From the IMG/VR virus record IMGVR_UViG_3300013794_000014, positions 1 to 64,000 of that record: 64,000 nt of DNA. One strand, given 5' to 3'. The DNA comes from a virus. Under the pieces are notes generated by a model. That model made no database searches, was not told the DNA's origin, and saw nothing but the letters and a program-made list of their open reading frames with translations. Of the stretch, positions 10,507-62,855 are shown piece after piece (the stretch's first letter is position 1; every line of letters begins with the position of its first letter). The translations under genes were made by a program, and so were the position numbers.

Positions 10507-10538
10507 AATAAAGTAAAGTATGATATGTGGTGGTTCCA

Positions 10539-42069: not shown

Positions 42070-42071
42070 AC

Positions 42072-42410
42072 ATGTTAGGTTTCTTTGTCACTGTCAATAG
42101 TCCAGTGAATCCGATTTTAGTTGCAACAATGCAATGTCGAAATATGCGTATCGAGGTTCAAAACCAGAAAGCTACAGTATTATATGAGCTGTATGATCCG
42201 AACCAACCTGTAGATCAATCTAATATCAGTATTATTTGGCCAACTAAACCAACTTATGAGTTTCAATATGGTAAACTAGATGATGAAATACAGAAATGGT
42301 TAGAGGACTTACGAAAACATCAATTATCTTCAACTACTATTAAAACACAAGTACGTGGTAAGATCAACTATATAACTGGTATACCCGTAGGTTTACCTGA
42401 TAACTGGTAA
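42072..42410 (+). CDS. Hypothetical tail-region protein
   Basis: SD GGTGA; directly follows the tail gene. Confidence 0.6.
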   Translation: MLGFFVTVNSPVNPILVATMQCRNMRIEVQNQKATVLYELYDPNQPVDQSNISIIWPTKPTYEFQYGKLDDEIQKWLEDLRKHQLSSTTIKTQVRGKINYITGIPVGLPDNW

Positions 42411-42473
42411 CTGGTAGCTGGTAACTGGTAATTAGTAATTAGTAATTAGCAGTTGACAAATGGGGTGATAAAC

Positions 42474-43277
42474 ATGTTAGTATATACACCAATTCCACCA
42501 ATAAACTACATTGAAAAAGTAACAGAAAGAACAAAATCAATTTTTATGTTAGCACAATTATGGTCTATTGAAGAATATCGTAATGCAATTACTAATTCTA
42601 ATTTGAAACTAATTGTACTTGATAATGGTGCTTATGAAGGTGAACTAGTATCAGATAAACGTTTAATTGAAGTTATTGGACAAGTATCTGAGTTACACCC
42701 AAAAGCAAAGATTTATGCCATAATACCAGATGAAATGCAGAATCCAGAAATGACGTTAAAGAGAACTGAAAAGTTTTTACAGTACATAGAAAGTAACGAT
42801 ATAAAGTTACCAAAAAATGTTTCATTATTAGGTGTCATTCAGGTAGATCCAAATGTCAATGAAAAAACTGCAATAATACAAACGTTAGACTTTTCTGGTA
42901 AATTAATTGACTTAACACATGGTTATGGTGTTCATTTAGGCGGTTTTACAATACCAGTATGGTTCTACAGAAAATGGGGTTATCGTGATGTATTCGGTTT
43001 AACTTTACGTTTAGTTTACAATGATCATATGTATATTCACGCCTTGGGTTTAGACGACTTCAATGAACTTAGATACATACAATATGGTTTTGATTCGTTT
43101 GATACGTCTATGCCATTTACGTTAGCATACTACGGTTTACCAATTAAGGAAGTGCCGTTACTTGACAAAAGTACTAAACAACAGTTAGGCATTGATAGAG
43201 TGCCGCTAAAGCATCCAGTTCTCGAAAACTCTTTATACATGAAGAATCTAGAAGAAATATTGAAATTATGTAAGTAA
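42474..43277 (+). CDS. dpdA: DpdA/TGT-fold transglycosylase, candidate for inserting 7-deazaguanine into DNA
   Basis: LDNGAYE, IIPD, GVIQ, HALG and SFDTS are TGT-family-like motifs; no Zn site or PUA domain; directly upstream of mptA and in the gat-queC operon. Confidence 0.7.
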   Translation: MLVYTPIPPINYIEKVTERTKSIFMLAQLWSIEEYRNAITNSNLKLIVLDNGAYEGELVSDKRLIEVIGQVSELHPKAKIYAIIPDEMQNPEMTLKRTEKFLQYIESNDIKLPKNVSLLGVIQVDPNVNEKTAIIQTLDFSGKLIDLTHGYGVHLGGFTIPVWFYRKWGYRDVFGLTLRLVYNDHMYIHALGLDDFNELRYIQYGFDSFDTSMPFTLAYYGLPIKEVPLLDKSTKQQLGIDRVPLKHPVLENSLYMKNLEEILKLCK

Positions 43278-43302
43278 AGTAACATATATATGTGGTGATC
43301 AA

Positions 43303-44184
43303 ATGAAAGATGTACAAAATAGTCAACCAGAAATACAAATACAGTATGATATACCGCTAGTAGGTATTGAAGACTTGAAGACATATGTACCAATTCATTG
43401 GAAAGATAACAGTTACCATCTACTTTGTACATTTTCAGTATTTGTCAATTTACCCGCTAATCAAAAAGGAATACATATGTCAAGAATACCTGAATCAATC
43501 TATGATGTAGTAAGGAAAATCGTTGGTAAAGAACATACATCATTAGAAGACTTACTAGTACATATTAAGGACAAACTACTTGAAAAACACGATTATGCTA
43601 ATACAGTTCTAATTAGGGTTTCAACGTATTTACCAATTACAGTGAAGACACCAAGAACAAAAAAAGATTCACAAGAAATCATACCAATTGAGATGGTTCT
43701 AGAACATAAAGACAATGAAACCCTTAAAACCCTAATTGTATATGTACTAGGACAAACTGTATGTCCATGTGCTCAAGAACTAACCAAAGAAGAACTTGAT
43801 GTTGAGTTATCTCCAAGTCATAATCAAAGGGGACAAATGACTATTGAATTCAAATGTCCAATTGATTATAACATTACCTTTGAAGAACTCTATGATGTAG
43901 CATGTAAGTCAATGTCGGCGCCAACATATTCACTGTTGAAAAGGCCGGATGAACAATTTGTCGTATTACAATCACATAGTAGGCCAAGGTTCGTCGAAGA
44001 TTGTGTTAGATATGCTAAACACTATATTGAACAATTAATTAGTGAAAAAGGTAACAAAAACAAAGACAAAAACAATAAAAACGTTTCTTACAGAATTAAA
44101 CAAGTCAATTATGAGTCAATACATAAACATAATGCAGTTGCAATTATTGGTGATTTAAGGTTTGGTAATCTAGGACTTCGGTGA
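43303..44184 (+). CDS. mptA: GTP cyclohydrolase, MptA/FolE2 family
   Basis: DVQ, VGI, KGIHMSR, TVCPCA, HNQRG, LLKRPDE, PRFVEDCVR, ESIHKHNA. Confidence 0.93.
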   Translation: MKDVQNSQPEIQIQYDIPLVGIEDLKTYVPIHWKDNSYHLLCTFSVFVNLPANQKGIHMSRIPESIYDVVRKIVGKEHTSLEDLLVHIKDKLLEKHDYANTVLIRVSTYLPITVKTPRTKKDSQEIIPIEMVLEHKDNETLKTLIVYVLGQTVCPCAQELTKEELDVELSPSHNQRGQMTIEFKCPIDYNITFEELYDVACKSMSAPTYSLLKRPDEQFVVLQSHSRPRFVEDCVRYAKHYIEQLISEKGNKNKDKNNKNVSYRIKQVNYESIHKHNAVAIIGDLRFGNLGLR

Positions 44185-44226
44185 TCTAGGATTTTCGGTG
44201 ATCCAAGATTTTCGGTGATCCAAATG
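44161..44226 (+). repeat. 16-17-bp tandem repeat, about 4 units, spanning the mptA stop and the next SD/start
   Basis: TTTGGTAATCTAGGAC / TTCGGTGATCTAGGATT / TTCGGTGATCCAAGATT / TTCGGTGATCCAAATG. Confidence 0.9.
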
Positions 44227-45141
44227 ACTTCCATTTCTGATTTAAACATTCTTTTTTGTTATAACCAAGAAAAATTAGGTGCAATAAAGCGTGCTCACTG
44301 TTTACAAGAACAATCTCCAAAAGAAGTTGAATTACATTCTGTTCCGGTACAAAAAGTACAAGATATAGACGATGACTTTACACATGTTATTCTTGATAAA
44401 ACTGTTGCTAACACGCCTATCGAGCAAAATTATGAACAGAAACTAGTATTAGCAAATTGCCATAGAGAGCAGTATCAAAACTTAAATGTCAATGAAATGT
44501 TAGTTTATGATTTCAAAATGCCTTATACAGTATGTCGCTACAATTTACAGTATCCATATGAACGACAATACACTTACATTGGACCGTTGGTCAAAAGAGT
44601 ACAAACTAAACCAATTGAAGATAGGGCTGAACGTTTATTTGTCACAAATGGACAACATTACATGTTTGAATTAGCAAAATTTATTGTAGAACATGTAAAC
44701 GACGTCAAATGGATTATAGCGACAAAAACGGAAAAGGAATACGAAATACTAAAAGATACAAATAACTATGGACATGAAGTAGTCTATACAAAAGAGTTAG
44801 AACCTCTACTTGAACGTGCCAAATACGTTGTACATTATGGTTCACATCAGTTGGCGTTAGAATGCATTAGTACAGATCAAGTGCAATTAATTATACCGCC
44901 ACCACATTCAAGGTACTATTATCAACATGCATTCCGTATTAGGGAATTTTTAATTGGTTCATTTGTTTTTGATTTGTTTCATAGGGTACCAATTGAACGT
45001 AAATACCGCATAATAAGAAGAATTCGTTGTAATTATAAGTCATATAGAAGCAATTTACAGAACTATCGTGAAAAGGTAGAAAATAGTAAGGTGGTTACAT
45101 GTACACTGCCCACACTCTTTATACAGAACTCAAAGACTTAA
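44224..45141 (+). CDS. Divergent GT-B glycosyltransferase-like protein (GT28/MurG C-terminal-like)
   Basis: YIGPLV, LFVTNG, LLERAKYVVHYGSHQLALECI...LIIP...YQ resembles the ll..adlvithgG..t..Ea....P.i.iP...eQ consensus. Confidence 0.55.
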   Translation: MTSISDLNILFCYNQEKLGAIKRAHCLQEQSPKEVELHSVPVQKVQDIDDDFTHVILDKTVANTPIEQNYEQKLVLANCHREQYQNLNVNEMLVYDFKMPYTVCRYNLQYPYERQYTYIGPLVKRVQTKPIEDRAERLFVTNGQHYMFELAKFIVEHVNDVKWIIATKTEKEYEILKDTNNYGHEVVYTKELEPLLERAKYVVHYGSHQLALECISTDQVQLIIPPPHSRYYYQHAFRIREFLIGSFVFDLFHRVPIERKYRIIRRIRCNYKSYRSNLQNYREKVENSKVVTCTLPTLFIQNSKT

Positions 45142-45758
45142 AAAACGTTGTCTTAATAGTTTTTGACAATAATGTTGCTCATTTTTACGTTGGTATTAAA
45201 AGTGGATCTAAACTAATGAATGACAAAAACGTTAAAGGTAGAATTTACCTCAGTAATAGTTTAAATGCAACTTTTTGTATCACAGAATTCGATGATTTCT
45301 TAAAATACTTGAAGAACGTTAACGAACCTATCTTTTTTGACAAAGAAAATTTGGTTGTAACTACTCCTAATCGTGAGTTTGAATTTGTTGTCGATGAATT
45401 ACCACCGAAAGAACATTGGCCTACCTTTCCATATATCCAGAAACCAGAGACAATGTATAAAAACCTAAATTTGAAAATTGAGGTTCCTTATGACATAATG
45501 CGGTTTGAAGAAGAAGGAACATTTGTAGTATCATTAATGGGCCATAAAAAACGTATTAATAAAAACAAACATAAATTGTACACAGAAGTGAAGCGTGAAA
45601 CATTAGATAGATTACCACGATTTACATACGATTACTCATTGACGTTAGATTACCTTTATTTGCAATACAAAGAACCGTTAACTGGAAAAGCAAAAATAGA
45701 ATTCTATTTGACAAATGACTTAATGGTAACAGATGACGACATATTCGAGGTGATCTAA
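45099..45758 (+). CDS. Possible divergent sliding clamp (PCNA/gp45-like)
   Basis: About 220 aa; two alpha/beta halves with a Pro-rich linker; C-terminal LYLQY...G...IEFYL resembles PCNA. Confidence 0.35.
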   Translation: MYTAHTLYTELKDLKNVVLIVFDNNVAHFYVGIKSGSKLMNDKNVKGRIYLSNSLNATFCITEFDDFLKYLKNVNEPIFFDKENLVVTTPNREFEFVVDELPPKEHWPTFPYIQKPETMYKNLNLKIEVPYDIMRFEEEGTFVVSLMGHKKRINKNKHKLYTEVKRETLDRLPRFTYDYSLTLDYLYLQYKEPLTGKAKIEFYLTNDLMVTDDDIFEVI

Positions 45759-46340
45759 ATGGAGTTAATAATAGACTTAAAACGGAAGACATATACTGGT
45801 GACGTCATTGAACCATTATGGGCTTATCAGCAATATGGTATTCAAAGTGACAGTATAGTGGTATTCAGAGGTCCTATGCAAGTAGAATTATCCGACATGA
45901 AAGATTTAGCCGACATTAAAGAAGCAAAACCAATTTATGCTAATGACGCCATTAATTTTATCATAGAGCATTTTGATTATCCAGATATCAGAATTACTTA
46001 TTTGAGACAAAGGTTACTTGTAATGATAGCAAAAGAAGTTCTAGAAGAGTATTCGGGCAAAAGGTTAACAAGAAATGGTGATGACTTATATTACAATAAC
46101 GGTAAACTTTCTGTATCTATTGCGACTAGTAGCATAACATCAGGAAAAATTCACTTGGGTATAAATATCACTAATGAAGGTACGCCTAAGGGTGTAAAAA
46201 CCGCCGCATTAAGTGATTTAGGACTAGTTAACGATGATCAAATTGAAATGATCATGGAAATGATTGGTAAACGGTATAAAACTGAAGTTGAAAAAATTGA
46301 GCAAGACATTAGGAAAACATTGCCGTTACTATCGAGGTGA
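45759..46340 (+). CDS. DUF366 family protein (BPL/LplA-like fold)
   Basis: PLWAY, DSIVVFRGP, DMKDLAD, FIIEHFD, LRQRLL, RNGDDLY, KLSVSIAT, IHLGINI. Confidence 0.85.
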   Translation: MELIIDLKRKTYTGDVIEPLWAYQQYGIQSDSIVVFRGPMQVELSDMKDLADIKEAKPIYANDAINFIIEHFDYPDIRITYLRQRLLVMIAKEVLEEYSGKRLTRNGDDLYYNNGKLSVSIATSSITSGKIHLGINITNEGTPKGVKTAALSDLGLVNDDQIEMIMEMIGKRYKTEVEKIEQDIRKTLPLLSR

Positions 46341-46344
46341 AATA

Positions 46345-47730
46345 ATGTGTGGAATAGGTTTCTATGGTCCAATATTAAACTCAGAAAGAGATAAACTACT
46401 TATTATGGAGTTATTGAAGACGTTGACAAAAAGAGGAAAAGATGGTTATGGTTTCATAGTAATCAGTGAAGATGGTAAGTATATGTTGTATCGCCATCAT
46501 AGTTTAGATCAAGTACTTATGCAATTACATTACACTGAGTTAAGAAAAGGAGATATTGTATTGGTACATAGTAGGGCAAGACCAATAAGTGAACTAATTC
46601 ATGAGGAAGAAAAAGAAAAGGACATTGAACTTTTACAACCTATTGTAAAACATAAAATTGCAGTTGTCTTTAACGGCATAATCGAAAATGATGAAGAGTT
46701 TAGGGAAAATGAAGAAAAATGGGTTGATACGTTTGCCATTTGTAAATACCATTCATTGCCCACATATAAGGACAAAGTTTTAAAAGGCAGTTATTCGTAC
46801 ATTTACGTTGATTTAGATGAACCACAAAAGATACACGCAATTAAAGGAAACCAACCATTATATGCTTACGAAAACGTGTATACTGGACAAATGATACTGT
46901 CGTCTGAACCGATAAAATTTGAAAACTTTTACAGTGTAAAGTTTCCAGTTGCTACAGAAATGGCTTTGACATTTAAAGTACAACAGTACATATTCGGACT
47001 ATTGACGACGTATAAATGTGAATATGAAATGACACCAATAAAAATCCATAATTCAGTGAATACACCAGATCCTGATAAATCAAAAGCGGTTGTCTTATGT
47101 TCTGGTGGACTTGATTCTTGTGTAGTCGCCTACGAAATGGCCAAACAATGTAATCACATCATTTTATTGAATTTTGACTATGGACAACCTGCCAGAAAAC
47201 AAGAATGGAATGCTACATTGAAACTATACGAATACCTACAGAAACAGTTTCCAGAGAAAACGTTCGAAGTTGTTCAATTGAAATTAGACGTGTTAAGTAC
47301 ATTGGCATCAAAGTCAACTGTTTTCAATGAACCTCCTGAAGGTACAAACGCCTTAGAAACCCTTTCAAGATGGATACCCGCAAGAAACTTAGTGTTCCTT
47401 TCATTGGCAGTTAGTTATGCAGAATATTGTGGTGCTGGAAAAATCGCCTATGGTGGAAACCTCGAAGAAGCATGTGTCTTTCCAGATAATACAACAGAAG
47501 CAATTGAAAAGTTCAATGAAGCAGTACAATGGTTTATTGCAAAACCAAAGATACAAATTATATGTCCAACCGCTTATGATATGAAAGTGGATATTGTCAG
47601 AAAAGCAATCGAGTATGGCGTCTATGATATTTCTTGGAGTTGTGATAGAGATGGTGAAACAGAATGTGGGCAATGTGAAGGATGTCTACTGAAACGTAAA
47701 GCACATAGACTTGTCACGTATCACATGTAA
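46345..47730 (+). CDS. queC: Gat-QueC fusion (glutamine amidotransferase plus preQ0 synthase; archaeosine-forming type)
   Basis: N-terminal MCGI nucleophile, RGKDG, HSR, NGII; SGGLDS, DYGQ, PARN, FPD, SWSC...CGQCEGC. Confidence 0.93.
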   Translation: MCGIGFYGPILNSERDKLLIMELLKTLTKRGKDGYGFIVISEDGKYMLYRHHSLDQVLMQLHYTELRKGDIVLVHSRARPISELIHEEEKEKDIELLQPIVKHKIAVVFNGIIENDEEFRENEEKWVDTFAICKYHSLPTYKDKVLKGSYSYIYVDLDEPQKIHAIKGNQPLYAYENVYTGQMILSSEPIKFENFYSVKFPVATEMALTFKVQQYIFGLLTTYKCEYEMTPIKIHNSVNTPDPDKSKAVVLCSGGLDSCVVAYEMAKQCNHIILLNFDYGQPARKQEWNATLKLYEYLQKQFPEKTFEVVQLKLDVLSTLASKSTVFNEPPEGTNALETLSRWIPARNLVFLSLAVSYAEYCGAGKIAYGGNLEEACVFPDNTTEAIEKFNEAVQWFIAKPKIQIICPTAYDMKVDIVRKAIEYGVYDISWSCDRDGETECGQCEGCLLKRKAHRLVTYHM

Positions 47731-48092
47731 TCTTTGTAAACTTTAACTTCAGTTGGTTCAGTTACCTCTATTTCAACTTTTACATAAGGTGCTAAAGTCA
47801 ATACGATGTCGGATTTTTGAACTCTTGTACTATAATGATTGTCAAAAGTAATAACTGTGGTTGGTTCAGTATCATCTGCACTTCCGTCATTGGTTAAGGC
47901 CTGATAGCATTTGACGTAAACTTTCGTATTCGGGTTTCCTTTAGGTAATTGCACGACTAAATATATTGCTTCTGATATAGCGTTAATATAGAATGTTTTT
48001 GTATGTTCAACAATATCATGAAAGACAACTTCTGGTTTTTTACGTGTAGTTGAATATATCCAATGTCCTTTGAAACTCCTAATGAAAGGCAT
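47721..48092 (-). CDS. Hypothetical beta-rich protein
   Basis: SD AGGTGA on the minus strand; convergent overlap with queC. Confidence 0.65.
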   Translation of the reverse strand: MPFIRSFKGHWIYSTTRKKPEVVFHDIVEHTKTFYINAISEAIYLVVQLPKGNPNTKVYVKCYQALTNDGSADDTEPTTVITFDNHYSTRVQKSDIVLTLAPYVKVEIEVTEPTEVKVYKDYM

Positions 48093-48183
48093 TGTATCAC
48101 CTATCCTGTCACTTATAATGACATATACGTTAAATCAATTAAATTAAATTTAGAATTGAAGAAGGTAATATAAAGGTGTCAAT

Positions 48184-48396
48184 ATGTATAGGGTGCTGAT
48201 TGTTGGTTCAGAACCAATCAGAGTCAGAATTGATACAGAAGAACAATATTTTGAAATACAGTATAGCGATGTATTTGGTCCTATTAGATTTACATATGAT
48301 GATCCCTATGACATTATAAAAGTAATTGAACAATATACTTCTTTGAGTCAAGAAGATATACAAAGAATACTTGGTGTCTGTTACTATGGATGGTAA
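48184..48396 (+). CDS. Small acidic protein overlapping the hslU start
   Basis: SD AGGTG; 11-nt overlap with ATG 48386. Confidence 0.65.
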   Translation: MYRVLIVGSEPIRVRIDTEEQYFEIQYSDVFGPIRFTYDDPYDIIKVIEQYTSLSQEDIQRILGVCYYGW

Positions 48397-49684
48397 GAAC
48401 AAACTTCAGAAAATACAAGACTATTTACGACAGTATATCAAAGGACAAGAGCATGTCATTAAGTTAATTTCTATCTTACTGATTAACAGAGATCGAATTG
48501 AACGTATCAAATCTAAATTTAATTTTGAATCCGATACTAATATCAATGACAATGACAATGATATAGAATATCCCAAAGATGAGTTAGTGCCTCCTAACAT
48601 TATGTTAATTGGGCCGTCTGGATGTGGTAAAACCGAATTAACTAAACGTATTGCAGAAATTAGTGGGCGGTTTTGGTTCAGGATACCATGTACTGTATTG
48701 TCTGCAACTGGATATGTTGGTAAAGACGTAAACGACATATTGAAATATGCAATTGAATCAGCTATACAGAAAATACAAGAACAAAAACGTAAGGAGATAA
48801 TTGAACGGCAACTAGATAAACTATTATTGCGTGCTACTAAACCGCCACTAGTTACTGATACATATGTAAATAGTATTAAGAAATATGTTGAAGTTTATCG
48901 TAAGAATCCAGAACATCCACTGTTAGAAGAATTGTTAGTAGCAACGGTACCTGAACCGCATTACATGTTTAATCAAAAAGGTGAGAAATATACTGCAGGT
49001 ATTTTCTATCAAGAAGTCCGGGATACTGTAAAATCTATAATTGAAAAGTTAATTGAGGGTGAGTTAGCGAAACAACAGGAAAAAATACAAATGGAAGCAA
49101 TTAAACAAGTTGAAAACGGCATAATTATGCTTGATGAAATCGACAAGATTGTTGGAGGACGTCTCGATAACGTTTCAATGTATGGTGTTCAAAGAGAACT
49201 TCTTGCATTAGTTGAAGGATCCACATTTCATACACAATATGGTCCGATTAACACGAAAAACATATTGTTTATTTCAGCAGGAGCATTTCAAGTTGTATCA
49301 CCAGATGAAATGTTACCAGAACTGAGAGGTCGTTTTCCAATACGAATAAAACTTAAACCACTAATGAAAAAAGATTTCGTTGAAATTCTGAAACATTCAA
49401 GACTATCACCATTGAAAAAGTTCCAAACCATAATGAAAGCAGATGGAATTAACGTTACTTTTACAGACGACGCAATTGAGTATCTTGCTGAATATGCTGA
49501 AATGTTAAATCAGAAAGAAGAACAAATTGGTGCAAGACGTCTATGGGAATTATTTGATAAACACCTTATTGACTTGTATTTACTAGAAAAAGATACTGTA
49601 ATCACGAAGGAAATGTTACAAGAATTATTGCCAAGACATAGTAGAAGAAAACAAAAAAGATTTCCATATGAGATGTATATATAG
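48386..49684 (+). CDS. hslU: HslU/ClpY-type AAA+ unfoldase with a C-terminal HbYX motif
   Basis: GQEH, PPNIMLIGPSGCGKTE, pore loop GYVG, LDEIDKI, GVQRELLALVEG, ILFISAGAF, PELRGRFPIR, IGARRL; ends YEMYI*. Confidence 0.92.
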   Translation: MDGKNKLQKIQDYLRQYIKGQEHVIKLISILLINRDRIERIKSKFNFESDTNINDNDNDIEYPKDELVPPNIMLIGPSGCGKTELTKRIAEISGRFWFRIPCTVLSATGYVGKDVNDILKYAIESAIQKIQEQKRKEIIERQLDKLLLRATKPPLVTDTYVNSIKKYVEVYRKNPEHPLLEELLVATVPEPHYMFNQKGEKYTAGIFYQEVRDTVKSIIEKLIEGELAKQQEKIQMEAIKQVENGIIMLDEIDKIVGGRLDNVSMYGVQRELLALVEGSTFHTQYGPINTKNILFISAGAFQVVSPDEMLPELRGRFPIRIKLKPLMKKDFVEILKHSRLSPLKKFQTIMKADGINVTFTDDAIEYLAEYAEMLNQKEEQIGARRLWELFDKHLIDLYLLEKDTVITKEMLQELLPRHSRRKQKRFPYEMYI

Positions 49685-49735
49685 ATGTTCTGATAGATGA
49701 TGAATATAATGTAATAAACAGTTATCGGTGACAAA

Positions 49736-50671
49736 ATGCATGGTAAAATACATCCACATTGGTTTTTACCAATGAATTATTTTCCATGTCAATATTACAT
49801 CAGAGCATATAGTGCTAATTTCACAGAAAATTGGTTTGTAAAATATGAAACAGAATCAAGTACAGTTGTTGACGATGATGGTAACGAAATACCAATGGTA
49901 GTTCCTGTAGAACCTGATAAATATCATAATATTAACAGTAACGAATTAATTGCACTACAGTTCAATGCAAAAACCAAACAGTTTAAATTGATAGAAAAAG
50001 TATATACAACTAACAATTCTAGTAACGAAAATGAATTCATTTATCATCGTGAAAATATTATTAAATGTTATTACCCAGAAGATTTTACAGAGGTAAAAAA
50101 AGTGAAACCAGGACAATATATTGACGGCAGTAATATTGGTGATTTGATTTACGTTGCAACCACGGATGATGGTGCTGCTTGGACTAGTAATTTCTACTAT
50201 GGTACAAAAGAATATATTGGCCGCAGATTCAGACATTATGTAGATGTTAACAAAACTGTAATAACCGGATATGATGCTGAAGGTAGACCAATAACTACAA
50301 CGGTTCGGATTACATATACAAAACCATTTATTGTGTATTTGGATCCACATAAGTTTGCTGAAGAACATTTAGACTTAACAAATCAAGACTATGATTTTGC
50401 TTTAGTTAAATACACTGAGTGGAGTTCATGGCCAAATGCTAAACACCCCGTTTCTGGTAGACATAAAGCTATAATTTCAAAAAGAAACTACTATCCATAT
50501 GGTTGGTTTGAACCTTATCGTGAATACTGGACTCTTTTAAAACGTAAACCAAAAGAAGATAATGAAGATGGTTATGAGCGTATTTGTATGATGGCAAGAA
50601 CAGGGAAAGACACATCATATGGACTTGCTATCAGTGAAATTATCTATTACAAGTTAAATACAAATGAATAG
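49736..50671 (+). CDS. Hypothetical (virion?) protein, paralog of 50683
   Basis: FLPMNYF, YDFALVK, GLAISEIIYY. Confidence 0.7.
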   Translation: MHGKIHPHWFLPMNYFPCQYYIRAYSANFTENWFVKYETESSTVVDDDGNEIPMVVPVEPDKYHNINSNELIALQFNAKTKQFKLIEKVYTTNNSSNENEFIYHRENIIKCYYPEDFTEVKKVKPGQYIDGSNIGDLIYVATTDDGAAWTSNFYYGTKEYIGRRFRHYVDVNKTVITGYDAEGRPITTTVRITYTKPFIVYLDPHKFAEEHLDLTNQDYDFALVKYTEWSSWPNAKHPVSGRHKAIISKRNYYPYGWFEPYREYWTLLKRKPKEDNEDGYERICMMARTGKDTSYGLAISEIIYYKLNTNE

Positions 50672-50682
50672 GTGATCAAATT

Positions 50683-51492
50683 ATGTTTCTGCATTTACCT
50701 GAAAGAGTTTTTTTTGAAACTGAAATGAAACGTAAGGCATTACAACAGAACGCATACAATTTTGGTTGGACTTGGTATTATACAATTGAATCACAAGATC
50801 ATACGTTACAAGTACATTATACAGGTAATGCGATAACCAGTACAAATTACATAATGTTACAACCAACCAGATTCGATAACAGGTTTGTTAACCTTAACAT
50901 AAAGATTCTAAATGAACCTATATATGACCCAACCGATACACACGTTGTATATAGTTATACACATAAACTTGAGTTAATTTTTGAACAACAGTGTACACAT
51001 GTATATACGTATTATCCACATCCATCACATTTTTGGTATAAAAGGTTTAATTGGAGTGCAGACCATAAAGATGAGTTATGGGTTGATAACGACAAGTTCA
51101 AGTTGAAAATCTTTCCAATGTTAGATAAGTATCCTGGTACAGATGTGCAGCATAACGAATGGAGTGGTTTTTTGGGTATAGGAATGGTTGCTGGAGGTGC
51201 ACCAGCTGTGATACAAATTCCAATGGAAAATTTCATTCTTGATGAGGATGGAAATCCAATGGGCGAATGGGATTTTGCTGTTGTGCGCGGACATTGGCTT
51301 GGTGGCGAAACTATGTTATCATACGGTTCTAGAGATGACATTAAACCTGTATCAATGACTATACCTAAGCGTGAATTTGAAGTTGTTGTTAAACCAGGAG
51401 AATCATTATGGTACAGTAGTTTATCTGGTGGAAGTAGAGGTTTTGCAATAACTTACATTCAGTTTTATCGGTACAATCAAATTCCTGGTTAA
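50683..51492 (+). CDS. Hypothetical (virion?) protein, paralog of 49736
   Basis: HLPERVF, WDFAVVR, GFAITYIQFY. Confidence 0.7.
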   Translation: MFLHLPERVFFETEMKRKALQQNAYNFGWTWYYTIESQDHTLQVHYTGNAITSTNYIMLQPTRFDNRFVNLNIKILNEPIYDPTDTHVVYSYTHKLELIFEQQCTHVYTYYPHPSHFWYKRFNWSADHKDELWVDNDKFKLKIFPMLDKYPGTDVQHNEWSGFLGIGMVAGGAPAVIQIPMENFILDEDGNPMGEWDFAVVRGHWLGGETMLSYGSRDDIKPVSMTIPKREFEVVVKPGESLWYSSLSGGSRGFAITYIQFYRYNQIPG

Positions 51493-51503
51493 AGGTGTCA
51501 ACA

Positions 51504-52094
51504 ATGTTATTACGCCTCTTACCTAACGAATATTTTAGTTTAGTGTTTCCAAAAGAACTTGATGAAAATACTAGTCAGTTGGGAAAGTTACAGTTAATAC
51601 GTTATAATAGACAACAAGAACAAGGACAAGAACATGAACAAAAACAAAATCAAGAACAGTATAAATATTATTTCATTAATGAAAGTTATGATAATTTCAC
51701 TGTTAAATTTGTGTTCAATGATGATTCAGTTCTGTATGTACCTGTAGAAGTCTTTTCAAACAGGCATTGGGTAGTTTGTTCACCTTTTGAAGTCCATGTA
51801 CACTCTTTACATGAAAATCCTTCTTTTGGTTTTACACATCATTTAGATGGTCTTTATTGTCATTATAGTACACGTGATTATTTGGTTTTTGAGAACTTAA
51901 ACGTTTATACATATAGATATACGTTTTATGGTGAAGATTGTGTTATAGAACATGTAGACCTGTACAATAACAGTATGTTTATCACAGATCTTACTGACCA
52001 AACTGAAAAGACTTCAATAATTATGAAACCCACTGAAAAGATCATTGTTGTTGTACAAGGAGACTTGTACTTTAAGTCAATGAAATGTTGGTGA
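51504..52094 (+). CDS. Hypothetical protein
   Basis: SD AGGTG; LLPNEYF resembles the N-termini of the two preceding genes. Confidence 0.65.
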   Translation: MLLRLLPNEYFSLVFPKELDENTSQLGKLQLIRYNRQQEQGQEHEQKQNQEQYKYYFINESYDNFTVKFVFNDDSVLYVPVEVFSNRHWVVCSPFEVHVHSLHENPSFGFTHHLDGLYCHYSTRDYLVFENLNVYTYRYTFYGEDCVIEHVDLYNNSMFITDLTDQTEKTSIIMKPTEKIIVVVQGDLYFKSMKCW

Positions 52095-52099
52095 CATAA

Positions 52100-53536
52100 A
52101 TGACATTAGACGAGTATGTATATACAGTTTACATTGATAACAAGAAGTTTACTGGATATTTAAGGATACCTGAAACAATACTTACTAAATTTGGAAGGCA
52201 AATAATAGCCTACTTAGAACTCGAAAACGTTTCAGGAATAGAACCTGGAACGAAAAAAGTTGTTATACGTTGGCCTAAAAGTGTATTCCCATACGTCTTA
52301 AATGCTTCAAATGTCATTTTCGAAATAGATGGCCGTTTAGTATTCCAACATAATGTATCTACAAATTCTGAAACGTATACAACAGAACATGCGGTATCAA
52401 TAGACAGTGAGTTTAAGTGTTTGAGAGTATATATCGGATCAGAAGAACAAGATACTACAAAAACTGTTATTGGGTACTTAAATGGAATTCGTGAATTCTT
52501 TACGTACTTATTCCAATTCCCTAAATCTATACGTAATAACGTTGGCGTTTTTGATACAACTACTTTTGATTTCGAATTCTCTAAACCAATGAAAGCCGAC
52601 ACAAGACATTATTTCGATTTATACATTCCCACTACTATATTGTTTGCTAAGCCTTCGCGTGCTGATTTACTGTTACAATCAATTGACATACTGACTATAC
52701 CTTTTGCTTTCTTAAAATGTTACTACGAAAATGAACTGTTGACTGATATGTCTACTAAAGGATCTGTATTTGTTTTTTCATATCCACGTGATTACCGCAT
52801 CATACCATTAGGATCAGTATGTTCTTTTAGTTTCCCAAAATCTTTTTCCGATCTTACAGACTTACTGTATATTTGGATAGTCGTTTCATCACCATCATCG
52901 TCATTATCACCATCAACAGTTACACCATTTCATGTATTGAAATCATTGTATTTAATTCCTGAGTTCATATGGTGTACTGCTCCTATATACGTTTTATCAT
53001 CAATTCATTCTATGGGGTTTTTCGACTTAGACAGTTTTTCGCTTACAATACCGAAAATATATAAAGAAAACCTTAGGTATGCTTCTGAGGTACATACAAT
53101 TGTCAATTTGTTTACAAAATCATTTTATGAAGGTACTAAAGCATCAGAAACTAACACCTTTACATTTACTGTACCGGGATCGCGTGAACATATGATGATT
53201 TTCATGTTTTTCCATACTGTTTTGTTGGACAAGTACTTGTATATCGCTATACCATTAGAAACAAACCTTATATCTACATTATTTTTTAAGGCGTTTAAAA
53301 ATGTAATACCATGTGAGTCAACTACTATTTCCACATATACATATGTAAGATATCATGAGAAGGCAAATGTTGCAAGACCATATTGGTTAAACTTCACGAG
53401 ATGTTATGAACCGAAATTTGAATGGGTTGTTGATTTTGATGTACCACCAGATCTCTTGTTCTTCAACTATGTATCACTTAACGAAGAATTTAACTTAGAT
53501 CTCCTGTTACTTGATCCTGATGCCAAAATCTTCTAA
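52100..53536 (+). CDS. Hypothetical beta-rich protein
   Basis: 478-aa ORF with SD GGTGA. Confidence 0.7.
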   Translation: MTLDEYVYTVYIDNKKFTGYLRIPETILTKFGRQIIAYLELENVSGIEPGTKKVVIRWPKSVFPYVLNASNVIFEIDGRLVFQHNVSTNSETYTTEHAVSIDSEFKCLRVYIGSEEQDTTKTVIGYLNGIREFFTYLFQFPKSIRNNVGVFDTTTFDFEFSKPMKADTRHYFDLYIPTTILFAKPSRADLLLQSIDILTIPFAFLKCYYENELLTDMSTKGSVFVFSYPRDYRIIPLGSVCSFSFPKSFSDLTDLLYIWIVVSSPSSSLSPSTVTPFHVLKSLYLIPEFIWCTAPIYVLSSIHSMGFFDLDSFSLTIPKIYKENLRYASEVHTIVNLFTKSFYEGTKASETNTFTFTVPGSREHMMIFMFFHTVLLDKYLYIAIPLETNLISTLFFKAFKNVIPCESTTISTYTYVRYHEKANVARPYWLNFTRCYEPKFEWVVDFDVPPDLLFFNYVSLNEEFNLDLLLLDPDAKIF

Positions 53537-53545
53537 GGTGTCTTT

Positions 53546-54100
53546 ATGCTATTAATGTCTATTCATGTTGCTGGTGATGCTCAAACATTGAAACTAGCGG
53601 CCGGGGCAAAAGTAAACGAATATTTAGTTCCATACAAATATAAGGACATACCTATGGTAACACCAGGACATATGTTTAAACTAGAAGGCTATGCTTTATG
53701 TTATGATAACTTAGAAATAACAATAAAGACGAAAGGCCAAGTTGAGTTCTATGTAGATGATGACACATGTCTCATCCAAGATGAATTTGACGATTGTACT
53801 GTACAATTGTCAACTGGTATACACCCAATTACATGTTATATTAAACCTACAGAATATCCTGTCTCATATGAGTTATCACCAAATATATTTGTACTTAACA
53901 ACGGATATATTGAGTTCACAGATCCGAAACCACTAACTACAAAACTTTTAAACTTTAGATTTGTAAATCCAGAAAAACATGTAAGACAAAAATACTATAT
54001 TGGAACAAGAAAATTGAAAACGTATTATTACGATTATAAACATTTAGATGACAAGTATACAGATACAACTGTAGTTATACCTCCAGAAGATGAAAGTTAA
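53546..54100 (+). CDS. Hypothetical protein, possibly PA14-like
   Basis: FKLEGY...EFYVDD...VQLSTGIHPI. Confidence 0.55.
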   Translation: MLLMSIHVAGDAQTLKLAAGAKVNEYLVPYKYKDIPMVTPGHMFKLEGYALCYDNLEITIKTKGQVEFYVDDDTCLIQDEFDDCTVQLSTGIHPITCYIKPTEYPVSYELSPNIFVLNNGYIEFTDPKPLTTKLLNFRFVNPEKHVRQKYYIGTRKLKTYYYDYKHLDDKYTDTTVVIPPEDES

Positions 54101-54162
54101 GTAGATGAAAATTAAATAAATGAAAGTTAGGTAATTGTCTAAGTAATAATTAGGTGATCACT

Positions 54163-54612
54163 ATGTACCAGTACCAGTTAAAAGTAAAAGTAAAACGGTT
54201 AACAGAAAACGCAAAATTACCAACTAAAGCATATGAGGGCGATTTAGGCTATGACTTATATTCTATTGAGTCTGTAACTGTTAAACCGAATGAAAAGCCC
54301 ACTTCAATTAGAACTGGTATAGCTATTGAGTTACCTAACAATTATGGGTGTATCATCAAAGACAGATCTAGTTTGGCGTCAGAAGGCTTACATGTCGTTG
54401 CTGGAGTCATTGATAACGGTTATAGAGGAGAAATAATCGTAAAAATGGTTAATTTATCTAATAAACCTATTACGTTAGTAGAGGGCACGAAAATAGCTCA
54501 AATGATCTTGATTCCAGTTGTAAACTGTGATATCATTGAAGTAGAACAGTTGTCTAAGACTGATAGAAACGATAAAGGATTCGGATCTTCAGGACTCTAT
54601 TCCACTAAATAA
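54163..54612 (+). CDS. dut: Trimeric dUTPase
   Basis: GYDL, RSS, GVIDNGYRGEI, KIAQ, RNDKGFGSSG. Confidence 0.95.
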   Translation: MYQYQLKVKVKRLTENAKLPTKAYEGDLGYDLYSIESVTVKPNEKPTSIRTGIAIELPNNYGCIIKDRSSLASEGLHVVAGVIDNGYRGEIIVKMVNLSNKPITLVEGTKIAQMILIPVVNCDIIEVEQLSKTDRNDKGFGSSGLYSTK

Positions 54613-54926
54613 ACTTTACTTGCATTAAGAAAAACAAAATCTTCGATCTTGAAAAGAGTTCCTCTTACATAAAGGATTTTATCTTGTGAAAGCGATTTAT
54701 TAAGTAAGTTTTTGTCAATATGAACGATAAAGTAGTCAGATTCATCTTGTAACGATCTTATTGTCACAGAATAATACTCTTTAACTTTCGATTTAAGTTC
54801 TTTGCGTTTCAACTGTACCCTAGAAACTTTACCTATTACTTCTAGATCAAAAATACATGGCTGACCATTTTCACATGTTCTTGCTATTTCTCTAATTTCC
54901 TTAAAGGTTAATGGTTCAATCTCCAC
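54597..54926 (-). CDS. OB-fold protein (ssDNA-binding-like)
   Basis: VIGKVSRV...SLQDESDYFIV...ILYVRGTL; SD AGGAGGTG on the minus strand. Confidence 0.6.
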   Translation of the reverse strand: MEIEPLTFKEIREIARTCENGQPCIFDLEVIGKVSRVQLKRKELKSKVKEYYSVTIRSLQDESDYFIVHIDKNLLNKSLSQDKILYVRGTLFKIEDFVFLNASKVYLVE

Positions 54927-55003
54927 GATAACACCTCCTTTAAAGTTCTAATATAACATTAAAAAAGCTAGTACTATATATAGTTTATGATGGGTGATTT
55001 CTA

Positions 55004-55585
55004 ATGAAAAAACCGTTATTTATAGCGTTTACGGGGCCTGCATCATCTGGTAAATCAACACTTGTAAAGCATTTAGCAGAAATCTTAAAAGTCAATTATA
55101 ACGTATATGTGGTTAGTGAGGTTGTACGTAGTATCCTGAAACACTGGAACATATCGTTAGATGCGTTACTTGAAAACCCTGATTTATTTTTTGATTTCCA
55201 AGTTAAAAGTTTAACAAAACAGATTTTGCTTGAAGAACGCCTACTGAAAAGTGACTACGACATTGTACTATTCGATAGATCAGTACATGATTACTTTATA
55301 TATGCCGCCCTTGGTTTACCACCCCATAAATTCAATGAATACAAAGATCATTTCAAGGATGTAACAAACAATTACGATCTACTTATTTACTGTGAACATT
55401 TAGGATTTGTCAACGATGGCGTTAGATCCAAAAAATACATTGAACTCGGTGAAATTGGGTTATTCCAAACGCTAGTGAAACCTTACGCAAATTACGTTTT
55501 AAGCGTTGAGCCACATTGGAAGCGTATACATAAAGTATTAGGGTGTATTGCGGGGTGTCTATCCAATGATTCAGAACATAGATAG
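55004..55585 (+). CDS. P-loop nucleoside/nucleotide kinase (NadR/AAA_28-like)
   Basis: GPASSGKST, SEVVR, DRSVHD, DGVR. Confidence 0.75.
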   Translation: MKKPLFIAFTGPASSGKSTLVKHLAEILKVNYNVYVVSEVVRSILKHWNISLDALLENPDLFFDFQVKSLTKQILLEERLLKSDYDIVLFDRSVHDYFIYAALGLPPHKFNEYKDHFKDVTNNYDLLIYCEHLGFVNDGVRSKKYIELGEIGLFQTLVKPYANYVLSVEPHWKRIHKVLGCIAGCLSNDSEHR

Positions 55586-56984: not shown

Positions 56985-56989
56985 TGTTT

Positions 56990-57337: not shown

Positions 57338-57341
57338 TAGT

Positions 57342-58874: not shown

Positions 58875-58886
58875 AGGTGAACTTTC

Positions 58887-59267: not shown

Positions 59268-59279
59268 AGGTGTCTTTTT

Positions 59280-62844: not shown

Positions 62845-62855
62845 AGGTGTCTACT

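What the first reader, a model, noticed from the sequence alone, without database searches (positions are those of the whole stretch)
48184..49684. Bacterial-type HslU with an HbYX tail: candidate viral cap for the host 20S proteasome
Seen: a full HslU-family ATPase (GYVG pore loop, DEIDK, GVQR..L..VEG, GRFPIR, IGARRL) with no hslV beside it or anywhere in the window. Its C-terminus is a basic linker ending RFPYE-M-Y-I-stop. Established: HslU normally docks on HslV through a C-terminal ...LSRFIL tail. Methanogens instead use the 20S proteasome, whose gate is opened by ATPases ending in hydrophobic-Tyr-X (HbYX; M. jannaschii PAN ends L-Y-R). M-Y-I fits HbYX exactly. Inference: the virus has repurposed a bacterial unfoldase as an alternative regulator of the host proteasome, redirecting degradation (for example of defence or host proteins) or competing with PAN. 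The overlapping 70-aa acidic gene upstream could be a substrate adaptor. I know of no described system like this.
Basis: partly seen in the sequence, partly recalled or inferred. Interest (0 to 1): 0.88.

Follow-up and report, generated by a model that had tools for sequence, protein, structure and literature searches.

The report
Viral HslU unfoldase with proteasome-docking tail
A 141-kb virus that most likely infects vent methanogens carries a bacterial-type HslU protein-unfolding motor whose tail has been replaced by the same [Leu/Met]-Tyr-X docking motif the host's own PAN uses, so it probably plugs into the host proteasome; this has not been tested at the bench.

Summary
ORF 48386-49684 (+) is an intact HslU-family AAA+ ATPase with every catalytic motif, and its predicted fold matches HslU. 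The complete 141,059-bp virus genome has no detectable HslV, proteasome subunit, ClpP or prohead protease.

All 9 known members of this clade (61-100% identical) end in [M/L]-Tyr-x after a disordered linker that varies in length and sequence. None of 260 other HslU-family proteins has a penultimate Tyr; 225 end in the HslV-docking aromatic-[I/V]-L.

Host-derived genes (TyrRS, MptA, DUF366, RecJ) point to Methanococcales. All 40 genomes of that order carry the 20S alpha subunit and 39 also an intact beta, plus PAN. None carries HslU, and no extra proteasome-family gene (HslV) was found. Their PAN tails (…KKVKVKEPAHLEVLYR, …PALNVMYG) match the viral tails (…RRKQKRFPYEMYI, …FPYELYR) in motif, proline and basic linker.

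The best reading is a virus-encoded alternative ATP-dependent cap for the host 20S proteasome (about 0.5). Binding is untested, and the one complex prediction gave no verdict.

The closest branch in the tree carries C-terminal IGF tails, and one member sits beside clpP, which hints at tail swapping between peptidases.

The scan noted this same stretch twice in this genome and not on other DNA.

The parts
48386..49684 (+). HslU-family AAA+ ATPase gene (432 aa from the ATG at 48386; an upstream in-frame TTG at 48371 would give 437 aa). The residue numbers in the other parts count from 48371.
   Evidence: TIGR00390 E 3.4e-71, 240 bits (cut-off 362); phrog_4339 E 1.4e-68; PF07724 AAA_2. PDB HslU 7mhb E 1e-57. 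AF2 model pLDDT 83, Foldseek top hits HslU/ClpY at TM about 0.7. P0001/P0002 start at the ATG.
48611..48634 (+). Walker A / P-loop GPSGCGKT (residues 81-88)
   Evidence: G81, P82, G84, G86, K87 and T88 are invariant across the viral clade and bacterial HslU.
48710..48721 (+). Pore-1 loop G-Y-V-G (residues 114-117), the substrate-gripping aromatic loop of HslU/ClpX
   Evidence: G114, Y115 and G117 are invariant; the third position varies (V/M/A/H/I) within the clade.
48731..49072 (+). Insertion between Walker A and Walker B at the position of the HslU I domain (about residues 121-234): helices plus a long beta-hairpin. Its sequence cannot be aligned to bacterial I domains.
   Evidence: phmmer aligns only query residues 64-139 and 214-398 to PDB HslU. 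The AF2 secondary structure here is confident: H121-156, H163-178, E188-200, E206-219, H220-234.
49121..49147 (+). Walker B IIMLDEIDK (residues 251-259)
   Evidence: D255, E256, D258 and K259 are invariant.
49328..49345 (+). GRFPIR box (residues 320-325), which holds the HslU arginine-finger region
   Evidence: G320, R321, F322 and P323 are invariant. Assigning the arginine finger here rests on established HslU literature and was not tested.
49529..49543 (+). Sensor-2 GARRL (residues 387-391)
   Evidence: G387, A388, R389, R390 and L391 are invariant.
49640..49672 (+). Flexible basic linker of the C-terminal tail (residues 424-434, ...RRKQKRFPYE). It varies in length and sequence, and a Pro at position -6 is kept in 6 of 8 lineages.
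   Evidence: pLDDT is below 50 for residues 424-437.
49673..49681 (+). HbYX-type C-terminus Met-Tyr-Ile, followed by the TAG stop at 49682-49684
   Evidence: DNA read. Position -2 is Y in 8 of 8 lineages, -3 is M (7) or L (1), -1 is I (5), R (2) or C (1). 0 of 260 other HslU-family proteins have a penultimate Y. Methanococcales PAN proteins end LYR (19), MYG (9) or MYA (2).
48184..48396 (+). Conserved 70-aa acidic protein gene, translationally coupled to the ATPase gene (11-nt overlap). Function unknown.
   Evidence: Present directly upstream of the ATPase in L002, L003 and L004 at 37-100% identity. pI 4.27. AF2 pLDDT 92.6, four strands plus two helices. No PDB fold match at E <= 0.001; no Pfam or PHROG hit.

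Best explanation
The gene encodes a hexameric HslU-type unfoldase/translocase that an archaeal (Methanococcales-like) virus has re-targeted from HslV to the host 20S proteasome. The ATPase core, pore loop and I-domain-like insertion are intact, so it should grip, unfold and thread proteins. The canonical HslV-docking end (...DLSR[Y/F]IL) has been replaced by a longer, disordered, basic tail ending in Pro-x-x-[Met/Leu]-Tyr-x. That is the HbYX motif with which the host's own PAN inserts into the pockets between 20S alpha subunits and opens the gate. During infection the viral ring would therefore cap host 20S particles, alone or in competition with PAN, and feed them substrates chosen by its own divergent I domain, perhaps helped by the co-translated 70-aa protein. 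Shown here: family membership, intact motifs, absence of any detectable viral or host HslV, conservation and uniqueness of the tail, its likeness to host PAN tails, and the presence of 20S and PAN in the presumptive host order. Inferred: hexamer formation, binding to the alpha ring, gate opening, coupled degradation, and the identity of the substrates.
For: (1) It is an HslU homologue with all catalytic motifs and an HslU-like predicted fold. (2) The tail ends [M/L]-Y-x in 9 of 9 clade members. Position -2 is invariant Tyr, -3 is M or L, and -1 is free (I/R/C); positions -4, -5 and -7 to -15 vary and the linker has indels. (3) 0 of 260 other HslU-family proteins have a penultimate Tyr, and 225 end in aromatic-[ILVMT]-[LIVMF]. 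The ProEnd paper states that HslU has no HbYX motif (PMC11475706). (4) The tail is predicted to be disordered (pLDDT < 50), as expected of a docking tail. (5) No proteasome or HslV homologue was found in the complete virus genome: PF00227 gave 0 candidates; hmmsearch --max over six-frame ORFs with alpha, beta and HslV profiles gave a best E of 0.18; hhalign gave a maximum probability of 8%. ClpP, S78 and S49 proteases are also absent. (6) The host signal is archaeal and Methanococcales-like. The viral TyrRS matches M. jannaschii TyrRS at E 8e-116, and its 15 nearest genomic relatives are all Methanothermococcus or Methanocaldococcus (60-65% identity) before a drop to about 50%. MptA scores above its cut-off, RecJ_Meth scores 307 bits, and DUF366 is present. 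DUF366 and mptA show 64-82% nucleotide identity to many Methanococcales genomes. (7) All 40 Methanococcales genomes have a 20S alpha and 39 an intact beta (one incomplete assembly shows alpha only; one has beta in two pieces). None has a further PF00227 gene, 40 of 40 have PAN, and 0 of 40 have HslU above cut-off. The alpha subunits keep the invariant Pro18 and Lys67. (8) Host PAN tails (...KKKVKVKEPAHL[D/E/S]VLYR...PALNVMYG) share the basic-linker, Pro and [L/M]-Y-x layout of the viral tails, and one viral homologue ends ...PYELYR. (9) A precedent for tail re-targeting: in a FastTree, the branch closest to the clade is four HslU-like proteins ending in IGF, the ClpP-docking tripeptide, and one of them lies next to a clpP gene.
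Against: There is no direct evidence of binding. HslU belongs to a different AAA+ clade from PAN, Rpt and Cdc48, and no HslU-type ring is known to dock on an alpha ring. The host is inferred from acquired genes, not from a CRISPR spacer or an isolate; the short DNA matches to Methanococcales genomes were not in CRISPR arrays. The clade is small: 9 sequences, about 8 lineages, a single cluster at 50% identity, so the conservation rests on limited sampling. By ProEnd's count about 1-2% of proteins end in HbYX by chance, and 2-3 other ORFs of this virus do so too. A very divergent virus-encoded peptidase, such as the roughly 140-aa phage PPH family (PMC8665760), could escape single-sequence profile searches.
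Confidence: 0.5

Rival explanations
1. A protease-independent unfoldase or remodeller. The ATPase acts alone, for example in virion assembly, disassembly of host complexes or protein quality control at high temperature. The conserved tail then binds something other than the 20S: the co-encoded 70-aa protein, another viral protein, or a neighbouring subunit of its own ring.
For: Orphan HslU-like genes with no hslV nearby occur in jumbo phages (phrog_4339; Klebsiella phage phiKp_32 'hslU', whose protein ends ...GLLESV). The synteny with the small ORF is conserved and translationally coupled. No binding to the 20S has been shown.
Against: It does not explain why the tail converges on exactly the [L/M]-Y-x, Pro and basic-linker layout of the host PAN. 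It also does not explain why only the last residues are conserved in a disordered tail of variable length. In the HslU family the established role of the C-terminal residues is peptidase docking (PMC4106860 abstract).
Confidence: 0.2
2. A proteasome blocker rather than an activator. The ring, or just its tails, occupies the alpha-ring pockets and displaces PAN or Cdc48, shutting down host-directed degradation of viral proteins instead of delivering substrates.
For: The same tail evidence as for the main reading. Competition with PAN follows from the shared motif.
Against: The pore-loop Tyr, Walker A/B, sensor and arginine-finger motifs are all invariant in the clade. A passive plug would not need them. 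HbYX peptides are established gate openers, not inhibitors (general knowledge; PMC11475706).
Confidence: 0.12
3. The ATPase works with a virus-encoded peptidase that is too divergent to recognise, for example a PPH-like mini-proteasome homologue or a novel fold among the many orphan ORFs. The tail is adapted to that partner.
For: Phage-specific, highly divergent proteasome homologues exist (PPH, AAH; PMC8665760). Most ORFs of this virus have no family assignment.
Against: Nothing was found with PF00227, with alpha, beta or HslV HMMs under --max, or with hhalign on all 90-400-aa ORFs. The neighbouring downstream ORFs look like hypervariable, duplicated beta-rich proteins rather than a conserved enzyme. 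Per that paper, PPH and AAH are reported only from bacteria and bacteriophages.
Confidence: 0.08
4. The motif has no function. The tail is a decayed remnant of ...[Y/F]IL (loss of the terminal Leu would leave ...Y-I), kept by shared ancestry in a young clade.
For: Canonical tails carry Tyr or Phe at position -3, so a one-residue truncation would put Tyr at -2. The clade is small.
Against: The clade has diverged to 61% identity, and the tail linker is essentially randomised with indels. Even so, Tyr at -2 is 8 of 8 and M/L at -3 is 8 of 8, while position -1 has drifted to R and C. In canonical HslU the residues before the aromatic are D-L-S-[R/K], and none of these survive.
Confidence: 0.05

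Closest known systems
Bacterial HslU (ClpY), ATPase of the HslUV protease (E. coli / H. influenzae; TIGR00390; PDB 1G3I, 1E94, 6PXK)
   Same: Homologous AAA+ module with GYVG pore loop, Walker A/B, GRFPIR and GARRL. It has an insertion at the I-domain position, and a C-terminal tail on the peptidase-facing side is used for docking. About 33-37% identity; Foldseek TM about 0.7.
   Different: The score is below the equivalog cut-off (240 vs 362 bits). The I-domain sequence is unrelated. The tail is longer and disordered and ends [M/L]-Y-x instead of D-L-S-[R/K]-[Y/F]-I-L. No hslV is present in the virus or in the presumptive host order.
PAN, the archaeal proteasome-activating nucleotidase (M. 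jannaschii MJ1176; TIGR01242), and other HbYX activators (Rpt2/3/5, archaeal Cdc48/VAT, Blm10/PA200, PbaA/B)
   Same: A C-terminal hydrophobic-Tyr-X motif on a flexible tail of an AAA+ ATPase expected to form a hexamer. The tail layout (basic stretch, Pro, a few residues, [L/M]-Y-x) matches the Methanococcales PAN tails read here.
   Different: A different AAA+ clade: HslU/ClpX-type rather than classical AAA. It has no N-terminal coiled-coil/OB domain and has an I-domain-like insertion instead. TIGR01242 matches only the P-loop region (E 2e-4, 20 bits against a cut-off of 500). It is virus-encoded.
Mycobacterial Mpa/ARC and Bpa/PafE (bacterial proteasome activators with a C-terminal GQYL motif)
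   Same: A precedent that a penultimate-Tyr C-terminal motif docks different kinds of activator onto a prokaryotic 20S alpha ring (general knowledge; PMC8755798 and PMC8223512 appeared).
   Different: These are actinobacterial cellular proteins of other families linked to pupylation. They are not viral and not HslU-type.
Orphan HslU-like 'ATP-dependent protease' genes of jumbo phages (phrog_4339; e.g. Klebsiella phage phiKp_32 hslU, Erwinia phage AH06 gp122)
   Same: A virus-encoded HslU homologue without an adjacent hslV.
   Different: Bacterial hosts and only about 25% identity. The phiKp_32 protein ends ...GLLESV, with neither an HbYX nor a canonical tail. No proteasome link has been proposed.
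HslU-like proteins with C-terminal IGF tails
   Same: The branch closest to the viral clade in the tree (midpoint root; joint support 99). Non-canonical tails, low-GC (31-33%) mobile-element or virus-like contigs, 33-36% identity.
   Different: The tail ends in Ile-Gly-Phe(+0-2), the tripeptide ClpX and ClpA use to dock on ClpP, and one member is next to clpP. There is no Tyr at position -2.

Membership tests
HslU (TIGR00390 equivalog; ATPase subunit of HslUV) | HslU/ClpX-type AAA+ module with Walker A/B, GYVG pore loop, arginine-finger box and sensor-2 GARRL | tested here: met
   All motifs are present and invariant in the alignment with bacterial HslU. PDB HslU E 1e-57. Foldseek HslU/ClpY TM about 0.7.
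HslU (TIGR00390 equivalog; ATPase subunit of HslUV) | Score above the curated equivalog cut-off | tested here: not met
   240.5 bits against a cut-off of 362.45.
HslU (TIGR00390 equivalog; ATPase subunit of HslUV) | I (intermediate) domain inserted between Walker A and Walker B | tested here: inconclusive
   An insertion of about 110 residues lies at the right place and is confidently modelled. Its sequence does not align to bacterial I domains: phmmer skips query residues 140-213.
HslU (TIGR00390 equivalog; ATPase subunit of HslUV) | C-terminal HslV-docking tail ending aromatic-[I/V]-[L/I] (…DLSR[Y/F]IL) | tested here: not met
   It ends ...FPYEMYI. 225 of 260 other family members have the canonical ending and 0 of 260 have a penultimate Tyr.
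HslU (TIGR00390 equivalog; ATPase subunit of HslUV) | A cognate hslV gene, normally adjacent | tested here: not met
   None was found in the complete virus genome or in the homologue contigs L002-L004. No PF00227 gene beyond the 20S alpha and beta was found in any of 40 Methanococcales genomes. Bacterial comparators do have it adjacent.
HbYX-dependent 20S proteasome activators (functional class: PAN, Rpt2/3/5, Cdc48, PA200...) | Hydrophobic-Tyr-any residue at the extreme C-terminus | tested here: met
   M-Y-I followed by a stop codon. The 9 clade members end MYI (6), LYR, MYR and MYC.
HbYX-dependent 20S proteasome activators (functional class: PAN, Rpt2/3/5, Cdc48, PA200...) | The motif is conserved among orthologues while the last residue is free, and it sits on a flexible tail | tested here: met
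   Right-aligned statistics; pLDDT below 50 for the last 14 residues.
HbYX-dependent 20S proteasome activators (functional class: PAN, Rpt2/3/5, Cdc48, PA200...) | A 20S alpha ring with the pocket lysine is available in the same cell | tested here: met
   The presumptive host order has a 20S alpha subunit in 40 of 40 genomes and an intact beta in 39, with invariant Lys67 and Pro18 in alpha. The host assignment itself is inferred.
HbYX-dependent 20S proteasome activators (functional class: PAN, Rpt2/3/5, Cdc48, PA200...) | Physical binding to the alpha-ring pockets and gate opening | not testable with these tools
   This needs purified proteins or peptides with 20S (peptidase stimulation, pull-down, cryo-EM).
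PAN / proteasomal classical-AAA ATPases (TIGR01242) | Classical AAA module with an N-terminal coiled-coil and OB domain | tested here: not met
   TIGR01242 gives only 20 bits, over the P-loop. The best families are HslU and ClpX, and the model shows no OB domain.

The most novel reading that the evidence does not exclude
A lineage of HslU-type unfoldases carried by viruses and other mobile elements has become a universal adaptor motor. By swapping only the last few residues of a flexible tail, it plugs into whichever self-compartmentalised peptidase the host offers: [M/L]-Y-x for the archaeal 20S proteasome in these Methanococcales-like viruses, and a C-terminal IGF for ClpP in the closest branch. 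The virus studied here would then be the first archaeal virus known to bring its own ATP-dependent proteasome cap, re-programming host proteolysis with its own substrate-recognition domain and perhaps a 70-aa adaptor.
Probability: 0.3. Interest if true: 0.9.

Novelty: new variant of a known kind. Interest (0 to 1): 0.8.

Why it matters
HslU-HslV and PAN-20S are textbook examples of two AAA+ lineages that are thought to have been recruited independently to proteasome-family peptidases through different interfaces. An HslU-type motor carrying a PAN-type HbYX tail would be a natural hybrid across that divide. It would show that the docking code is portable between AAA+ clades.

It would also be the first virus-encoded proteasome regulator in Archaea, which opens the question of which host or viral proteins an archaeal virus needs to destroy. 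It is directly testable with reagents that already exist, namely M. jannaschii 20S and PAN.

It could also give protein engineers a compact, thermostable unfoldase that couples to archaeal 20S. The IGF-tailed relatives beside clpP suggest a general rule for re-targeting unfoldases.

Tried and rejected
(1) Complex prediction with two Methanococcales alpha subunits (alignment A5, residues 1-240) plus the last 48 residues of the viral ATPase (A2). The verdict was 'no answer' (three runs at 0.04, 0.45 and 0.18; mark 0.32). It counts neither for nor against binding.

(2) Looking for more clade members with genomic context. The IMG/VR scan gave one distant relative (L001, 27% identity, tail unrelated). 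The metagenome contigs and genome-contig scans found none. The exhaustive representative search found only one cluster for the clade.

(3) P0121, the best non-clade hit (333 bits), was checked as a possible intermediate. It is an ordinary gammaproteobacterial hslV-hslU operon with a canonical tail.

(4) Direct host assignment through CRISPR spacers. One 20-kb chunk (window 40001-60000) was searched against 40 Methanococcales genomes. The 31-37-nt hits at 90-94% identity are not inside repeat arrays. The remaining chunks were not searched.

From memory the JGI sample label 'FS856' of homologue P0006 looks like a hydrothermal vent fluid sample, but I could not verify that.

(6) A stronger HslU-like hit in one Methanococcales MAG (G014:C91, a 518-aa ORF) turned out to be a degenerate ClpX/HslU-like ATPase with an acidic ...DDDFLF end, next to a DGQHR (DndB-like) gene. 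It is unrelated to this clade.

(7) ESM Atlas look-ups of the two downstream ORFs, and Foldseek of the 70-aa protein against the PDB, gave nothing usable.

(8) Literature searches for HslU with HbYX and for archaeal viruses with proteasome or unfoldase terms found no description of such a system in the held library.
Full report
WHAT IS THERE. The finding spans two overlapping genes on the + strand. ORF 48184-48396 encodes a 70-aa protein. ORF 48371/48386-49684 encodes a 437/432-aa AAA+ ATPase. The ATPase matches NCBIfam TIGR00390 (hslU) at E 3.4e-71 but scores 240 bits, below the equivalog cut-off of 362. ClpX is a distant second. It also matches PHROG 4339 at E 1.4e-68 and Pfam AAA_2. Against PDB sequences the best hits are HslU chains (7mhb at E 1e-57; 1G3I, 1E94, 6PXK). 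Only query residues 64-139 and 214-398 are aligned, so the segment at the I-domain position is not alignable.

An AlphaFold2 model built on a 14-sequence alignment has mean pLDDT 83. Foldseek places it on HslU/ClpY chains at TM about 0.7 over the full length. Walker A, the GYVG pore loop, Walker B, the GRFPIR box and GARRL are invariant between the viral proteins and bacterial HslU. The motor therefore looks catalytically competent. The likely start is the ATG at 48386, as in the database copies P0001 and P0002. It is preceded by GGTG and overlaps the small ORF by 11 nt. The gene ends ATG-TAT-ATA-TAG at 49673-49684.

THE TAIL. A word-index search of 5.8 billion proteins found nine close homologues (61-100% identity). 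After these, identity drops abruptly to about 35% with bacterial HslU. An exhaustive HMM search of 1.84 billion representatives found only one 50%-identity cluster for the clade.

All nine end in [M/L]-Tyr-x: six MYI, one LYR, one MYR and one MYC. When the eight distinct lineages are right-aligned:
- position -2 is Tyr in 8 of 8;
- position -3 is Met in 7 and Leu in 1;
- position -1 is Ile, Arg or Cys;
- position -6 is Pro in 6 of 8;
- positions -4, -5 and -7 to -15 vary freely, and the linker differs in length.
The last 14 residues are predicted to be disordered.

By contrast, 0 of 260 other HslU-family proteins returned have a penultimate Tyr. Of these, 225 end in the canonical aromatic-[I/V]-[L/I] (typically DLSR[Y/F]IL) and six end in an IGF motif. 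The ProEnd paper says explicitly that HslU has no HbYX motif. It puts the chance frequency of HbYX ends at 0.72% of bacterial and 1.92% of viral proteins (PMC11475706). In this virus, 7 of about 145 ORFs have a penultimate Tyr, and 3-4 of those have a hydrophobic residue before it. One HbYX end would therefore be unremarkable. Its strict retention in a hypervariable, disordered tail, in one clade only, is not.

NO COGNATE PEPTIDASE IN THE VIRUS. The window is the first 64 kb of a 141,059-bp virus record with direct terminal repeats, rated 100% complete. PF00227, which covers HslV and the proteasome alpha and beta subunits, finds no candidate at all. I built HMMs from Methanococcales alpha (23 sequences) and beta (10) subunits and from two bacterial HslV sequences. 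Run with --max against all six-frame ORFs of at least 50 aa, they gave a best E of 0.18. hhalign of every 90-400-aa ORF against these alignments peaked at 8% probability. ClpP, Peptidase_S78 and Peptidase_S49 are absent as well. None of the homologue contigs L002-L004 has a peptidase next to the ATPase, whereas bacterial comparators have hslV directly upstream. One limit remains: single-sequence searches could miss something as divergent as the phage PPH mini-proteasome homologues described by Fuchs et al. (PMC8665760).

WHO IS THE HOST. Several genes of cellular origin point to Methanococcales.
- A 311-aa archaeal-type TyrRS (6769-7704) hits M. jannaschii TyrRS (1J1U) at E 8e-116 and 390 bits, against 288 bits for the next archaeon.
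- In one genome per species of GTDB, the 15 closest relatives of this TyrRS are all Methanothermococcus or Methanocaldococcus at 60-65% identity. Methanobacteriales and Methanopyri follow at about 50%.
- ORF 43303-44184 passes the MptA equivalog cut-off. ORF 55548-56984 scores 307 bits on the RecJ_Meth model. ORF 45759-46340 is DUF366.
- The DUF366 and mptA genes are even detectable at the DNA level (64-82% identity) in most of 40 Methanococcales genomes.
- The GC content of 32% fits.
I found no CRISPR-spacer match in the single 20-kb chunk I searched. The host is therefore inferred and not proven, but an archaeal host is all the argument needs.

WHAT THE HOST OFFERS. All 40 Methanococcales genomes carry a 20S alpha gene. 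Thirty-eight of them show exactly one alpha and one beta. One incomplete assembly shows alpha only, and one has its beta gene in two pieces. None has an additional PF00227 paralogue, so none has HslV. All 40 have PAN above its cut-off, and none has an HslU above cut-off. The alpha subunits keep the invariant N-terminal YDR...FSPEGRLYQ segment and Lys67, which I take from memory to be equivalent to the HbYX-pocket Lys66 of Thermoplasma.

The PAN C-termini that I read from 30 of these genomes end ...KKKVKVKEPAHL[D/E/S]VLYR (19)...PALNVMYG (9) or ...LHVMYA (2). The viral tails are ...RRKQKRFPYEMYI...NKKQVYFPYELYR and ...KEVPHVMYR. They share a basic stretch, a proline, a few free residues and then [L/M]-Tyr-x. 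The viral HslU-type motor thus carries a close imitation of the host proteasome activator's docking tail.

HOW IT MOST LIKELY WORKS. In HslUV the C-terminal tails of HslU leave the ring on the peptidase-facing side and insert between HslV subunits. In PAN-20S the HbYX tails insert between alpha subunits and open the gate. Both points are established knowledge (PMC6329974, and the PMC4106860 abstract seen). The simplest reading is that the viral ring keeps the HslU engine and its exit-side tails, but the tails now fit the alpha-ring pockets of the host 20S. The ring would then form an alternative ATP-dependent cap whose substrate choice is set by its own divergent I-domain-like insertion. I give this about 0.5.

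The variants and rivals are these (their evidence is set out in the rival explanations):
- a PAN-displacing blocker, 0.12; the fully conserved motor motifs argue against it;
- a protease-independent remodeller whose tail binds something else, 0.2;
- an unrecognised viral peptidase partner, 0.08;
- a functionless remnant, 0.05.

EVOLUTIONARY CONTEXT. In a FastTree of 63 HslU-family proteins the HbYX clade is monophyletic (support 100). It groups, with support 99, with four proteins whose C-termini carry IGF (…KIGFVV, …TIGFLA, …RKIGF, …TIGFIT), apart from canonical HslU. Three caveats apply: the root is a midpoint root, the support values are local rather than bootstrap, and the clade sits on a long branch (1.28). 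IGF is the tripeptide with which ClpX and ClpA dock on ClpP (established knowledge). One of these proteins (P0131) lies immediately upstream of a clpP gene. Another (P0122) sits in virus-like contigs with MoxR, DUF2201, a DEAD helicase and a radical-SAM gene, and a third sits in a plasmid-like contig. All of these contigs have 31-33% GC. This suggests, but does not prove, a mobile-element lineage of HslU-type motors that changes peptidase partner by changing its tail.

THE SMALL UPSTREAM GENE. It is a real gene. It is conserved (37-41% identity in L002 and L004), always directly upstream, acidic (pI 4.3) and confidently folded into four strands and two helices (pLDDT 92.6). It has no family, PHROG or PDB fold match. 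A role as adaptor or regulator is possible but unsupported.

NOVELTY. Each component is known: the HslU engine, the HbYX docking code, and orphan HslU-like genes in phages. The combination is not described in the literature I could search, and one paper explicitly states the opposite for HslU. I class it as a new variant of a known kind, of high interest, and directly testable with existing M. jannaschii 20S and PAN reagents.

The scan had flagged the same stretch in an overlapping window of this genome (e1-5787052) and nowhere else.

Noticed in passing
P0131 in L163:795-2180 with clpP at L163:2428-3012; also P0122 (L164, L165), P0136, P0172 (L166, L167): A small group of HslU-like ATPases ends in a C-terminal Ile-Gly-Phe(+0-2 residues), the ClpP-docking tripeptide of ClpX/ClpA. 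P0131 lies right next to a clpP gene. In the tree this group is the branch closest to the HbYX clade. It may be a second case of tail re-targeting and deserves its own survey.
   Followed up: partly
window 49736-52094 (+), three ORFs of 311, 269 and 199 aa: The genes just downstream of the ATPase are hypervariable. In contig L003 the ATPase, small ORF and antisense ORF are 99-100% identical to the window, but these three are only 50-55% identical. In L002 they are tandemly duplicated. They are aromatic-rich orphans with weak Ig/beta-sandwich-like structural hints, possibly a diversifying host-recognition cassette.
   Followed up: partly
window 47721-48092 (-): A conserved 123-aa orphan gene on the opposite strand between GAT-QueC and the small ORF (55% identical in L004). 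Its C-terminus also keeps a penultimate Tyr (...KDYM / ...RDYI), but with Asp rather than a hydrophobic residue before it.
   Followed up: partly
window 3294-5222 (-): A 642-aa DEAD/ResIII helicase-like protein ends in Trp-Tyr-Thr, which is formally also an HbYX end. Conservation was not checked.
   Followed up: no
window 6769-7704 (+) and 28358-28435 (+): The virus encodes its own archaeal-type tyrosyl-tRNA synthetase (60-65% identical to Methanocaldococcus and Methanothermococcus TyrRS; 390 bits to PDB 1J1U) and a tRNA-Arg(GCG).
   Followed up: partly
window 42453-47730 (+): A 7-deazaguanine-type modification cluster immediately upstream. It contains FolE2/MptA (43303-44184, above the MptA cut-off), DUF366 (45759-46340, E 8e-71) and a GATase-QueC fusion (46264-47730). 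The DUF366 and mptA genes have 64-82% nucleotide identity to Methanococcales chromosomes.
   Followed up: partly
window 9115-11966 (+): A 463-aa ORF is followed by a DUF2201 / VWA-like metallopeptidase-domain protein. The 463-aa ORF is weakly similar to the AAA_5 (MoxR-like) gene of contigs L164/L165, where the same pair also occurs near an HslU-like gene.
   Followed up: no
window 35975-39143 and 61609-63998 (+): Several large proteins carry DUF2341 and a Laminin_G_3 (concanavalin-like) domain. They are probably fibre or adhesin proteins.
   Followed up: no
window 22425-23741 (+) and 55548-56984 (+): An ATP-dependent DNA ligase and a methanogen-type RecJ/GAN-like nuclease (RecJ_Meth, 307 bits). 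These add to the archaeal flavour of the replication genes.
   Followed up: no
L091 (G014:C91) 1815-3371 (-): In one Methanococcales MAG, a 518-aa degenerate ClpX/HslU-like ATPase with an acidic ...EEDDDFLF end sits near a DGQHR (DndB-like) gene. This may be a defence island. It is unrelated to the viral clade.
   Followed up: partly
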